NCBI GenBank assembly: GCA_003151745.1
Contig: PLYJ01000069.1
Location: 13,270 to 77,269 of the forward strand
DNA: 64,000 nt
Source: Bacteroidota bacterium
GTDB taxonomy: Bacteria > Bacteroidota > Bacteroidia > AKYH767-A > 2013-40CM-41-45
Direction: 5' to 3'
Part shown: one piece after another, positions 56,250 to 57,447 of the stretch
Numbering within the stretch: the first letter of the stretch is position 1
Layout of the letters: each line of letters opens with the position of its first letter
Position numbers and translations under genes: made by a program
Notes under the pieces: generated by a model
Database searches by the model: none
Told to the model about the DNA's origin: nothing
Seen by the model: only the letters and a program-made list of their open reading frames with translations

Positions 56250-57447
56250 TTAAAAACTCAAGTACTGAATCCACAATATACTTCAATGTATCTTCATCCA
56301 ACTCCGTATGCATGGGCAGTGAGATCACACTCTTGCAAAGCATTTCAGTAACCGGAAAATCACCTTCCTTATAACGCGGATCAGGAAATGCTTTCTGCAT
56401 GTGCAATGGCACAGGATAATAGATCATGGCAGGAATTTCTTTTGATGCAAGAAACTCACGCAGCCTGGTGCGGTCAGCATTTTTAAGAACAAGCGTATAT
56501 TGATGAAACACATGATCTGAATAAGAAGCATGCTTCGGCGTAACGATCTTAGGATGATTTGCAAATGCCTTATCATAATAGTCTGCTGCCTTGCGGCGGG
56601 CTGCTGCATATTCATCTAAATGACGAAGCTTGATGCGAAGAATAGCCGCTTGCAAACTATCCAGTCGTGAGTTTACTCCAATCTCATCATGATAATATTG
56701 CACGCTTTGCCCATGATTAGCTACCATGCGCGCCTTCTTTGCCAAAGCATCATCGTTTGTATATAGCGCTCCGCCGTCACCATAGCATCCAAGGTTCTTA
56801 GAAGGAAAGAAAGAAGTGCATCCTACTGTGCCAATTGTTCCCGCTTTGGCCCCTCTGCCCCCCAAAGGGGGGTGCTGCATCACAATTTCATTTGAGGATT
56901 GCGCGGTGGAAAGCCCCTCCTTTGGAGGGGTTGGGGAGGCTGAATAATAATTCGCTCCTATTGCCTGCGCCACATCTTCAATCACTGCCAGATTATGCTT
57001 CTTCGCAATCTTCATGATGGCATCCATATCAGCACATTGCCCGAAGAGATGAACAGGAACAATGGCTTTTGTCTTGGGAGTAATTGCAGCCTCAATAGCT
57101 TTCGGATCAATGCAAAAAGTATCAGGCAGCACATCCACCAGCACAGGCTTCAGCTTTAATAAAGCAATCACTTCAGCAGTGGCAACATACGTAAAGCTGG
57201 CAGTAATCACTTCATCACCCGGTTGAAAGCCCAATGCCATCATGGCAATTTGCAGCGCATCGGTTCCATTGGCGCAAGGGATAACATGCTTCACGCCAAG
57301 ATATTTTTCAAGCTCAGATTGAAAGTTCTTTACTTCAGGTCCGTTAATGAAGGCTGTGGAATGAATCACATCAAGCACAGCCTTATCTATCTCTGGTTGA
57401 ATTTTCTGGTATTGGGCTGCCAGGTCAACCATCATTATTTTCTTCAT
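56245..57447 (-). CDS. DegT/DnrJ/EryC1/StrS-family aminotransferase, WbpE-like, carrying an in-frame ~32-aa insertion
   Basis: [16 protein letters not shown] start, [9 protein letters not shown], PLP-lysine region [17 protein letters not shown], and NSRLD. ATG 57447 is chosen. The longer ORF to 57693 crosses a hairpin and a divergent promoter. Confidence 0.9.
   Translation of the reverse strand: [400 protein letters not shown]
56850..56945. repeat. Bipartite GC palindromic element inserted in frame in the aminotransferase gene
   Basis: CCCCCCAAAGGGGGG (56858-56872), then a spacer, then CCCCTCCTTTGGAGGGG-TTGGGGAGGCT (56914-56941). It encodes [32 protein letters not shown]. Confidence 0.85.

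What the first reader, a model, noticed from the sequence alone, without database searches (positions are those of the whole stretch)
56850..56945. A ~32-residue palindromic-element insertion sits about 20 residues upstream of the PLP lysine of a WbpE-like aminotransferase
The protein reads ...AQAIGANYY[[32 protein letters not shown]][27 protein letters not shown]....

From memory, characterised family members run straight from GA.Y to KGK......CTSFFPSK with no such segment; in P. aeruginosa WbpE this is roughly [27 protein letters not shown].

The bracketed segment is encoded exactly by the two GC hairpins plus their spacer, and the frame is preserved. Either the enzyme tolerates a large surface loop next to its active-site strand, or the gene is inactivated while remaining an intact ORF.
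Basis: partly seen in the sequence, partly recalled or inferred. Interest (0 to 1): 0.65.

Follow-up and report, generated by a model that had tools for sequence, protein, structure and literature searches.

The report
Mobile hairpin insert in aminotransferase gene
A 94-base GC-rich double-hairpin repeat has replaced a short surface loop in a sugar aminotransferase gene without breaking the reading frame, and it is one of about 50 such copies that sit in frame inside many essential genes of this freshwater Bacteroidota genome, much like the palindromic elements of Rickettsia.

Summary
The WbpE-like aminotransferase (window 56245-57447, minus strand, 400 aa) carries 33 codons (56848-56946) where 109 of its 120 closest homologs have an 8-residue beta-hairpin turn. 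The extra DNA is a 94-nt element made of two inverted GC hairpin units and a 40-nt spacer.

It is not a one-off:
- The same family forms 52 clusters in this 4.6-Mb genome.
- 37 of these clusters lie in frame inside long ORFs, including the only copies of gyrA, ligA, valS, atpG, priA and recF.
- 440 other Bacteroidota genomes carry 0-3 copies each.

The spacer is homologous to the spacers of the gyrA copy here and of a ValRS copy in another genus, so the element moved as a unit.

The gene looks functional:
- dN/dS is 0.04 against the closest insert-free relative.
- All family-invariant residues are kept.
- The AlphaFold model matches WbpE (TM 0.93), with the insert as a disordered loop at a hairpin tip.

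Best reading: a tolerated, translated, RPE-like selfish element, a new member of a known kind.

Three things remain unexplained:
- The native loop is replaced rather than extended.
- The same loops are hit independently in other lineages.
- No cognate mobilising enzyme was found.

The parts
56245..57447 (-). DegT/WbpE-like nucleotide-sugar aminotransferase gene (400 aa), first gene of a conserved aminotransferase / UDP-glucose 6-dehydrogenase / epimerase block
   Evidence: ORF and translation. Best PDB sequence and fold matches are WbpE 3nu7/3nu8/3nyu. Orthologs are named UDP-2-acetamido-2-deoxy-ribo-hexuluronate aminotransferase by JGI. The same neighbours occur in L040, L002, L004 and L005.
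56848..56946 (-). 99-nt block (codons Y168-A200) that stands in place of the 24-nt native loop (KFADGTLK in the closest relative); net gain 75 nt = 25 residues
   Evidence: DNA alignment with L039; loop-length census.
56848..56941 (-). The element proper: 94 nt, AGCC...GGCC. It has two inverted hairpin units plus a spacer and encodes [31 protein letters not shown].
   Evidence: Sequence; nhmmer family hits; open in the used frame.
56913..56941 (-). Unit A (5' in the coding sense): tail AGCCTCCCCAA plus hairpin CCCCTCC-AAA-GGAGGGG, with stem arms at 56914-56920 and 56924-56930
   Evidence: Exact palindrome; 29-32-nt identical copies on C126, C116 and C35; no stop codon in any of six frames.
56873..56912 (-). 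40-nt spacer, encoding (L)[12 protein letters not shown](H). It belongs to the element and is not a remnant of the native loop.
   Evidence: Alignment score 16 to the spacer of the gyrA copy, above all 3150 shuffled comparisons. The first 20 nt are nearly identical in the ValRS copy of genome G015. A related peptide, GGLTTAQSS, occurs in UvrA of G021.
56848..56872 (-). Unit B (3' in the coding sense, inverted): hairpin CCCCCC-TTT-GGGGGG (56858-56872) plus tail CAGAGGGGCC (56848-56857)
   Evidence: Exact palindrome; 24 genome copies of the unit pattern.
56797..56799 (-). Codon of the PLP-binding lysine K217 (FFPSK), 17 residues after the insert
   Evidence: Aligned with WbpE K185 in TSFFPSK; invariant in 116 homologs.
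35641..35857 (.). Three further units of the same family (a single unit at 35641-35669 and a doublet at 35776-35857), in frame inside a 451-aa minus-strand ORF of the window
   Evidence: genome coordinates C127:48910-49126.
40427..40503 (.). Related composite copy: a degenerate C-run hairpin plus a TCCCGC-ACGT-GCGGGA hairpin, with the family tail TTGGGGGAGGC
28862..28901 (.). Intergenic copy of the sister subfamily (CCCCTCTCC-AAA-GGAGAGGGG, with tail AGCCTCACCCCAA)

Best explanation
The extra segment is one copy of a non-autonomous, palindromic mobile DNA family.

Architecture:
- Each unit has a C-rich tail (AGCCYCCCC), two linker bases, and a perfect 6-7-bp C/G hairpin with an AAA/TTT loop.
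- Two units in inverted orientation flank a spacer.
- The family has undergone a burst in this Bacteroidota genome.

How this copy arose (inferred): it integrated at the DNA level into the codons of the beta-hairpin turn between the strands ...GANY and KAGTIG... The event was imprecise. It removed the 24 nt coding the native turn, left no target duplication, and happened to restore the frame.

Why it is tolerated:
- The units are built of C/G runs and AAA/TTT loops. They therefore contain no stop codon in any frame and code for Pro/Gly/Lys-rich flexible peptides (ASPTPPKEG..., ...PPLGGRGA).
- The element is transcribed and translated with the gene. It forms a disordered loop at the tip of a hairpin that tolerates length variation.
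- The aminotransferase fold and the PLP site are left intact.

The element is selfish. Selection has filtered the insertions that persist (in frame, in permissive loops, at gene ends); it has not created them.

Status of each step:
- Shown: membership of the repeat family, absence from orthologs, frame preservation, purifying selection on the gene, and presence of the family in sole copies of essential genes.
- Inferred: translation of the insert, retained enzyme activity, and the break-and-join mode of integration.
- Unknown: the mobilising enzyme.
For: Family membership:
- nhmmer with the 98-nt query finds full-length relatives on 8 or more contigs at E down to 6e-11.
- The genome holds 52 core clusters.
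- The spacer is homologous to those of the gyrA, ispG and ligA copies and to a ValRS copy in genus g9.

Absence from orthologs:
- All 40 relatives lack it.
- The closest relative, P0003/L039 (94% aa identity), has the canonical loop.
- 109 of 120 homologs have the canonical length.

The burst is lineage-specific: 24 pattern hits here against 0-3 in 440 other Bacteroidota genomes.

Tolerance:
- 37 of 52 clusters are intragenic with an open frame.
- The hosts, confirmed by Pfam, are GyrA, NAD-dependent DNA ligase, ValRS-type synthetase, ATP synthase gamma, PriA, RecF, IspG, HisF and a class-III aminotransferase. Each of these except ispG is the only copy in the assembly; ispG has a partial second copy.
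- G013 orthologs lack every one of the insertions.

Gene integrity:
- dN/dS is 0.04 at dS about 1.0.
- 109 columns invariant across the 116-sequence alignment, which includes this protein, are therefore kept here, among them K217, D158 and Q161.
- AF2 gives pTM 0.85. pLDDT is below 50 within the insert (172-197) and in two short downstream segments (218-221, 252-259). The insert lies between strands 166-168 and 199-201.
- The best fold match is WbpE, with TM 0.93 on the target.
- The operon context is conserved.

The site is permissive:
- WbpE is 6 residues shorter here.
- Other homologs are 3-9 residues longer.
- An independent lineage (P0004/L040) carries a different subfamily copy at the same place.

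The hairpin units have no stop codon in any of six frames.
Against: - There is no direct evidence that the protein is made or active.
- dN/dS averages over the whole divergence. It cannot exclude recent inactivation if the insertion is young.
- The base of the hairpin excursion lies between Q161 and the strand leading to K217. A 33-residue floppy loop could still affect dimer or substrate contacts, and distances could not be measured because no model coordinates were available.
- The integration mechanism is conjecture. No target-site duplication, autonomous copy or cognate enzyme was found.
- Random insertion plus selection does not easily explain two findings: the lack of depletion from coding sequence (71% against 64% of random windows) and repeated hits at identical boundaries in independent lineages.
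Confidence: 0.8

Rival explanations
1. The insertion has inactivated the enzyme. The gene would be a young pseudogene that still reads as an intact ORF, with the pathway lost or served by another DegT-family paralog.
For: The insert is large (33 residues for 8) and lies between active-site residues Q161 and K217 in sequence. The genome has three other DegT-family genes at 28-36% identity. dN/dS cannot date events after the insertion.
Against: - The same family sits in frame in the only copies of gyrA, ligA, valS, atpG, priA and recF, which cannot be dead.
- All invariant residues are kept.
- AF2 folds the core confidently around the insert.
- The downstream operon genes are intact.
- The element has diverged from its relatives (spacer about 68% identical to the gyrA copy, tail with 2 changes), so it is not brand new, yet no frameshift or stop has accumulated.
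- A second lineage keeps a similar insert at the same site in an intact gene.
Confidence: 0.08
2. The segment is removed or skipped before the mature protein is made. Possible routes are RNA excision, intein-like splicing, or translational bypassing of a GC hairpin, as at phage T4 gene 60 or the mitochondrial 'byp' elements.
For: The RNA can fold into a long hairpin of -43.5 kcal/mol. GC-rich hairpin inserts that are bypassed exist in yeast mitochondria (my own knowledge: Lang et al. 2014, PNAS).
Against: - All 37 intragenic clusters keep the host frame open and stop-free. That would be unnecessary if the segment were removed or bypassed.
- Rfam gives no intron or ribozyme match.
- The fold energy is not exceptional for this composition (z = -1.66).
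- There are no intein motifs: no N-terminal Cys/Ser and no C-terminal His-Asn. The insert begins with S/A and ends GRGA.
- Copies occur in both orientations relative to the host gene.
Confidence: 0.03
3. Assembly artefact: a chimeric join or a collapsed repeat at the GC hairpins.
For: The genome is a 279-contig metagenome bin with 6.8% estimated contamination. GC hairpins are hard for short-read sequencing.
Against: - The insert lies in the middle of an 83-kb contig.
- The identical protein is encoded on three assembled contigs or records, including ENA ERZ27254241 k141_1416022 of 83,277 nt.
- Both flanks are the same gene in the same frame.
- Dozens of analogous in-frame copies exist here and in other genomes assembled independently.
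Confidence: 0.02
4. The two hairpins are separate single-unit insertions that bracket what is left of the native loop, so the 'spacer' is host sequence.
For: Spacers of most doublets differ from one another. Long-spacer doublets bracket whole short intergenic regions, with one unit abutting the upstream stop codon and the other the downstream start.
Against: - For this copy the spacer is homologous to the spacers of copies in gyrA, ispG and ligA and in G015 ValRS.
- It shows no similarity to the native loop DNA of L039.
Confidence: 0.04
5. The insert has been co-opted. The Pro/Gly-rich loop or the DNA/RNA hairpin would have a function of its own, such as regulating translation or mRNA stability, acting as a recombination or nuclease target, or providing a new interaction surface.
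For: - The hairpin stems are still perfect although the spacer has diverged.
- The same loops are occupied in independent lineages.
- The family is not depleted from coding sequence.
- Hairpin repeats serve as targets of Ssn nucleases in other bacteria (PMC11893778).
Against: - The closest relative and 109 of 120 homologs do without it.
- Copies are scattered over unrelated proteins in both orientations and several frames.
- No cognate protein gene was found next to these hairpins.
Confidence: 0.07

Closest known systems
Rickettsia palindromic elements (RPE; Ogata et al. 2000 Science, as summarised in PMC10969869 and PMC3733652)
   Same: - Short palindromic repeats of a lineage-specific family.
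- Inserted in frame into many unrelated, functional, often essential genes.
- Absent from orthologs.
- The encoded peptide lies where the fold tolerates it.
- The mobilising mechanism is unknown.
   Different: - Different phylum: free-living freshwater Bacteroidota rather than an obligate intracellular alphaproteobacterium.
- No evident sequence relation.
- Shorter (60-130 nt, against about 100-150 nt) and of bipartite architecture: two inverted C/G hairpin units, each with a third C-run tail.
- A higher share of intragenic copies (37 of 52 clusters; RPE-1 are described as nearly half).
- The native loop is replaced rather than extended.
Intragenic REP singles and dimers of the GTAG and CGTC superfamilies (Di Nocera et al. 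2013, PMC3733652), and REPIN/RAYT systems
   Same: - 20-40-bp GC-rich palindromes, often as inverted dimers encoding 20-30 residues inside ORFs, as in Opitutus terrae uvrA, DNA ligase and tRNA synthetases.
- Some copies abut stop codons.
   Different: - The units carry neither a GTAG nor a CGTC tag (seen directly in the sequence).
- The five RAYT-like Y1 genes of this genome are flanked by a different, GTAG-containing palindrome, GTCCRCCGTAGGYGGAC, and not by these units.
- REPs are mostly extragenic, whereas this family is not.
Bacterial MITEs with intragenic, in-frame copies (ERIC, BOX, QMITE1, Anabaena MITEs; PMC10969869, PMC3184786)
   Same: Non-autonomous elements of about 100 nt with terminal inverted repeats. 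Occasional in-frame fusions with host ORFs.
   Different: No target-site duplication and no related transposase-bearing parent were found. Spacers vary between copies. Intragenic location is the rule, not the exception.
Ssn GIY-YIG single-strand nucleases and their NTS/SRM hairpin repeats (Chenal et al. 2025, PMC11893778)
   Same: Abundant 20-50-nt hairpin repeats expanded in particular lineages. This genome has three small single-domain GIY-YIG genes, each next to a GC hairpin.
   Different: The hairpins beside those genes are of other sequence families. The units here do not fit the SRM consensus HGTCWY...RNCYNB. No GIY-YIG gene is flanked by C6/CCCCTCC units.
WbpE of Pseudomonas aeruginosa (PDB 3nu7/3nu8/3nyu) and Pcryo_0616 (8e75), UDP-GlcNAc(3-keto)A aminotransferases
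   Same: - 45% identity, with TM 0.93 on the target.
- PLP lysine in TSFFPSK, Asp in IED and Gln in AQ.
- Orthologs bear the same name in JGI annotation.
   Different: The loop after GA.Y is 2 residues in WbpE, 8 in the Bacteroidota orthologs and 33 here. Substrate specificity was not tested. NCBIfam equivalog cut-offs are not reached for any named family.

Membership tests
DegT/DnrJ/EryC1/StrS (WbpE-type) sugar aminotransferase | Sequence and fold of a fold-type I sugar aminotransferase | tested here: met
   PDB phmmer gives E = 6e-98 to WbpE. Foldseek gives E = 6e-43 and TM 0.93 on the target. Pfam PF01041 is recorded for the protein.
DegT/DnrJ/EryC1/StrS (WbpE-type) sugar aminotransferase | Catalytic residues: PLP lysine, the Asp that binds the pyridine N, and Gln/His after the Asp | tested here: met
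   K217 (FFPSK), D158 and Q161 (IEDVAQ) are present and invariant in 116 homologs. They align with WbpE K185.
DegT/DnrJ/EryC1/StrS (WbpE-type) sugar aminotransferase | Specific WbpE activity (UDP-2-acetamido-2-deoxy-3-oxo-D-glucuronate aminotransferase) | not testable with these tools
   Support is limited to names given to orthologs by JGI, 45% identity to WbpE, and neighbouring UDP-sugar dehydrogenase and epimerase genes. All NCBIfam equivalog hits are below their cut-offs.
Protein-coding palindromic repeats (RPE-like) | Member of a multi-copy repeat family within one genome | tested here: met
   52 clusters; nhmmer hits; spacer homology.
Protein-coding palindromic repeats (RPE-like) | Palindromic, hairpin-forming sequence | tested here: met
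   Two perfect stems of 7 and 6 bp, and mutually inverted units. The whole element folds as a long hairpin, although its energy is not exceptional for this composition (z = -1.66).
Protein-coding palindromic repeats (RPE-like) | Inserted in frame in unrelated functional genes and absent from orthologs | tested here: met
   for 16-18 host genes; for this gene.
Protein-coding palindromic repeats (RPE-like) | The encoded peptide lies at a position compatible with the fold (surface loop) | tested here: met
   The insert has pLDDT below 50 between two paired strands of a confidently folded core. The loop varies in length among homologs. Exposure is inferred from topology, not measured.
Protein-coding palindromic repeats (RPE-like) | Sequence homology to the Rickettsia RPE families | not tested
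   No RPE sequences were fetched. Composition and architecture differ, so this is a functional analogy, not family membership.
REP / REPIN mobilised by a RAYT | GTAG or CGTC tetranucleotide tag at one end of the palindrome | tested here: not met
   Neither tag nor its complement occurs in either unit (sequence).
REP / REPIN mobilised by a RAYT | A Y1 (RAYT) transposase gene flanked by the same repeat | tested here: not met
   There are five full and two partial PF01797 matches. The full genes are flanked by GTCCRCCGTAGGYGGAC-type palindromes or by nothing.
REP / REPIN mobilised by a RAYT | Inverted doublets of the palindrome | tested here: met
   23 doublets, with spacers of 6-90 nt.
MITE | Terminal inverted repeats | tested here: met
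   The termini AGCCYCCCC...GGGGRGGCT, plus the inner hairpins, are inverted.
MITE | Target-site duplication | tested here: not met
   Comparison with the empty site in L039 shows a 24-nt deletion and no duplication. The same holds for G015 against G008 ValRS.
MITE | A related autonomous element with the same ends | tested here: inconclusive
   No unit pair 0.3-3 kb apart encloses a transposase gene. However, the assembly is fragmented (279 contigs).
Ssn nuclease / SRM repeat system | A small GIY-YIG gene flanked by the repeat, and a repeat that fits the SRM consensus | tested here: not met
   Three small GIY-YIG genes have other hairpins beside them. The units do not fit HGTCWY...RNCYNB (PMC11893778).
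Intron / intein / bypass element | Ribozyme or intein motifs; no need for frame preservation | tested here: not met
   No Rfam match. All intragenic copies preserve the frame. There are no intein boundary residues.

The most novel reading that the evidence does not exclude
These elements may not be ordinary transposed repeats filtered by selection. They may instead mark an undescribed integration process aimed at coding DNA. The process would exchange a short stretch of target, typically the codons of a surface loop or the extreme end of a gene, for a stop-free, Pro/Gly-coding hairpin cassette, and it would leave no target duplication.

Four observations point this way:
- Loops are replaced in 15 of 16 host genes compared.
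- Identical boundaries were reached independently in two aminotransferase lineages, and the same loops of ValRS and UvrA are hit in different genera.
- There is no depletion from coding sequence (71% intragenic against 64% for random windows).
- Non-intragenic copies abut stop codons within 2-4 nt.

The mechanism could be break repair with templated capture of a hairpin, or an unknown nuclease or recombinase acting on transcribed or single-stranded DNA.
Probability: 0.3. Interest if true: 0.75.

Novelty: new member of a known kind. Interest (0 to 1): 0.55.

Why it matters
- It extends the phenomenon of selfish DNA inside protein-coding genes, best known from Rickettsia, to free-living freshwater Bacteroidota. 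The density is striking: the only copies of gyrA, ligA, valS, atpG, priA, recF and others each carry a 20-40-residue insert.
- For annotation, such genes should not be called pseudogenes, and their odd Pro/Gly-rich segments should not be read as domains.
- For protein science, the family is a natural map of permissive loops, and the insert-bearing and loop-restored enzymes form a ready-made pair for testing how much a fold tolerates.
- For mobile-element biology, three features are not explained by known REP/RAYT, MITE or Ssn models and could lead to a new integration mechanism: replacement of the target loop, recurrent use of the same sites in independent lineages, and the lack of any cognate enzyme.

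Tried and rejected
- **Rfam scan of the region.** It returned only meaningless sub-threshold hits.
- **RAYT hypothesis.** Y1 transposase genes exist but are flanked by other palindromes.
- **Ssn/GIY-YIG hypothesis**, prompted by earlier notes on this genome. The small GIY-YIG genes have unrelated hairpins beside them.
- **Spacer as native loop.** Rejected for this copy by spacer homology.
- **Search for an autonomous parent.** No unit pair encloses a gene.
- **IMG/VR scan with the unit pattern.** No hit, so there is no sign of phage carriage.
- **RNA and DNA folding.** The energy is not exceptional against dinucleotide shuffles (z = -1.66 and -0.82), so thermodynamics alone adds nothing.
- **First hairpin regex.** It under-counted because of greedy matching and was replaced by an explicit stem scan.
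- **Literature on the WbpE structure**, sought to place the loop in 3D. Nothing usable was found in the library.
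Full report
**What is there**

The finding lies in a minus-strand gene, window 56245-57447. It encodes a 400-residue DegT/WbpE-type aminotransferase.
- The plus strand at 56848-56941 reads GGCCCCTCTG-CCCCCC-AAA-GGGGGG, then a 40-nt spacer, then G-CCCCTCC-TTT-GGAGGGG-TTGGGGAGGCT.
- Both hairpins are perfect and are not expected by chance. The exact 17-mer has 0.00 expected matches. The C6-AAA-G6 motif has 7 window matches at up to 2 mismatches against 0.06 expected.
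- The two units are inverted relative to each other.
The PLP lysine (K217, FFPSK) follows 17 residues later.

**Is it an insertion?**

- phmmer against all PDB chains aligns residues 5-168 with WbpE 3-166 and residues 199-393 with WbpE 167-355. About 30 residues have no counterpart.
- In 40 genomes of the same family and order, every ortholog (66-82% identity) breaks the alignment at 168/197. The one exception has a moderately longer native loop.
- Among the 120 best homologs from 5.8 billion proteins, 109 have the canonical segment AQAIGxxY-8 residues-KAGT. Ours is the longest, at +25.
- The closest relative, P0003 (94% protein identity, 84% DNA identity), reads AAT TAT | AAA TTT GCT GAC GGC ACT TTG AAA | AAA GCA. 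Ours reads AAT TAT | 99 nt | AAA GCG.
- The 24 nt coding the native turn KFADGTLK are therefore gone, and the net gain is 75 nt. No target-site duplication is visible.

**What the insert is**

The units recur across the genome, which is 4.6 Mb in 279 contigs with 40% GC.
- Identical 29-32-nt copies of unit A lie on contigs C126, C116 and C35.
- nhmmer finds full-length relatives at E down to 6e-11.
- An explicit scan shows the common plan: tail AGCCYCCCC, two linker bases, a 6-7-bp C-run/G-run stem, and an AAA, TTT, GAA or TTC loop. Units usually occur as inverted doublets with spacers of 6-90 nt.
- The spacer of our copy aligns to the spacer of the copy in gyrA with score 16, above all 3150 shuffled comparisons. 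The ispG and ligA copies belong to the same group.
- A copy in the ValRS gene of another genus (G015) shares the first 20 spacer bases almost exactly and encodes [10 protein letters not shown]. UvrA of G021 carries GGLTTAQSS.
- The 94-nt block therefore moved as a unit, and the spacer is not a remnant of host sequence.

**Genome-wide behaviour**

- Of 52 clusters of the core family, 37 (71%) lie inside long ORFs with the frame open on both sides, 5 lie at ORF edges and 10 lie outside. Random 91-nt windows give 64%, 12% and 24%.
- Host ORFs include GyrA, NAD-dependent DNA ligase, a ValRS-type synthetase, ATP synthase gamma, PriA, RecF, IspG, HisF and a class-III aminotransferase, all identified by Pfam.
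- By inspection the hosts also include Mfd, SMC, NAD synthetase, RNase R, QueG, an E2 acyltransferase and an ABC exporter that is hit twice.
- tblastn shows that the insert-bearing gene is the only copy in the assembly for all hosts except ispG, which has a partial second copy.
- Orthologs in genome G013 lack every insertion and have short native loops at those sites.
- Copies occur in both orientations and in several reading frames. The peptides are of the types [26 protein letters not shown] and PPLGGGGA.
- The hairpin units have no stop codon in any of six frames, and the whole element is open in three.
- The copies outside ORFs abut stop codons within 2-4 nt or overlap gene starts.
- The burst is specific to this genome. 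The unit pattern has 24 hits here, 0-2 in 40 relatives and 0-3 in 400 further Bacteroidota genomes. It has none in IMG/VR.
- The rare copies elsewhere are also in frame inside genes: MetH, HutU, SelD, UvrA, ValRS and an adenine-deaminase-like ORF.

**Does the aminotransferase still work?**

Indirect evidence says yes.
- dN/dS against the insert-free relative is 0.04 at dS about 1.0, and it is similar on both sides of the insert.
- All 109 columns invariant across the 116-sequence alignment that includes this protein are kept, among them K217, D158 and Q161.
- AlphaFold2 with that alignment gives pTM 0.85. The insert (172-197) has pLDDT below 50 and lies between strands 166-168 and 199-201. The next strand, 208-213, leads to K217. 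Two short downstream segments (218-221, 252-259) also have pLDDT below 50.
- Foldseek's best hits are the WbpE structures, with TM 0.93 on the target and 45% identity.
- The neighbouring UDP-glucose 6-dehydrogenase and epimerase genes are intact, and the same gene order is found in relatives.
- The loop varies in length naturally. It is 6 residues shorter in WbpE and 3-9 residues longer in a few homologs.
- From fold-type I topology I infer that the hairpin tip points away from the cofactor.
- The strongest argument is by analogy: the same element family is carried by sole copies of genes that cannot be dispensed with.

**Independent hits at the same site**

- P0004, from a JGI metagenome contig of 207 kb, is 81% identical to our protein. 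It reads [31 protein letters not shown].
- Its DNA is a C6-C6 doublet of another subfamily. It sits between AAT TAT TAC and AAA GCC GGA, the same boundaries as ours.
- Each of the two insert-bearing proteins has a closer relative with the canonical loop: P0003 at 93.5% for ours and P0031 at 88% for P0004. The two insertions are therefore independent.
- ValRS is hit in the same loop in our genome and in G015, where same-genus G008 has YEEGDG instead. UvrA is hit in the same loop in G015 and G021.

**How it probably works**

The element is a selfish, non-autonomous DNA repeat.
- I infer that it integrates by an imprecise break-and-join event that trims the target. Element lengths are not multiples of three (94, 99, 101, 85, 93 nt), yet every surviving intragenic copy is in frame. 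Selection therefore keeps the one-third of events that restore the frame in a permissive place.
- Its composition makes it unusually harmless. It has no stop codons, and it encodes Pro/Gly-rich peptides that suit loops.
- I found no enzyme for it. The RAYT-like Y1 genes are flanked by a different, GTAG-containing palindrome. The three small GIY-YIG genes have other hairpins beside them. No unit pair encloses a gene.

**Comparison with what is known**

- The closest analogues are the Rickettsia palindromic elements and the intragenic REP dimers described by Di Nocera et al. in Opitutus terrae and other species (PMC10969869, PMC3733652).
- This family works like those elements, but it fails the defining tests for GTAG/CGTC REPs, for RAYT association, for MITEs (no duplication, no parent) and for Ssn/SRM repeats (PMC11893778).
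- I file it as a new member of the known kind 'protein-coding palindromic repeats'. Three features deserve follow-up: loop replacement, recurrent sites and no avoidance of coding DNA.

**Limits**

- The identical protein is, however, encoded on three assembled records.
- The metagenome scan with a spacer motif returned only chance matches.

Noticed in passing
genome contig C187:130-738 (outside the window): A Y1_Tnp-like (PF01797) ORF is itself interrupted by TCCCGC-ACGT-GCGGGA hairpins. That separate hairpin family has about 70 copies in the genome, and one copy is in the window at about 40466-40482.
   Followed up: partly
window 28862-28901, and 104 clusters genome-wide: A sister hairpin family (CCCCTCTCC-WWW-GGAGAGGGG, with an AGCCTCACCCCAA-type tail) is twice as numerous as the core family. 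About 48% of its clusters lie inside long ORFs.
   Followed up: partly
genome contigs C154:20032-20376, C58:10184-10528, C107:14706-15050, C238:12945-13286: Four RAYT-like Y1 transposase genes are each bracketed by GTCCRCCGTAGGYGGAC and CACCGTAGGTGC-type palindromes. This is a classic REP/RAYT arrangement, distinct from the element studied.
   Followed up: no
genome contigs C65:12779-12997, C241:15180-15377, C269:101384-101593: Three minimal GIY-YIG genes of about 100 aa each lie next to a long GC hairpin. The C269 copy sits between tRNA-like sequences. This agrees with earlier notes on this genome.
   Followed up: partly
window 105-284: A 60-residue stretch is 73% identical to the N-terminus of the LigA encoded on contig C126. 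It may be a second ligase gene or a fragment.
   Followed up: no
homologs P0006 (G010/L002), P0024, P0047, P0050: Non-repeat extensions of 5-9 residues occur at the same aminotransferase loop, and all begin YYF or YHF. They could be old, decayed insertions or ordinary loop variation.
   Followed up: no
genome contigs C147:3498-3629, C147:10649-10789, C158:20470-20609, C87:5024-5166, C87:2707-2828: Long-spacer doublets bracket entire short AT-rich intergenic regions. One unit lies 2-4 nt after the upstream stop codon and the other at the downstream gene start.
   Followed up: partly
genome contig C14:7312-7734: A partial second ispG copy, 68% identical over 165 residues. It may reflect contamination of the bin (6.8% estimated).
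   Followed up: no
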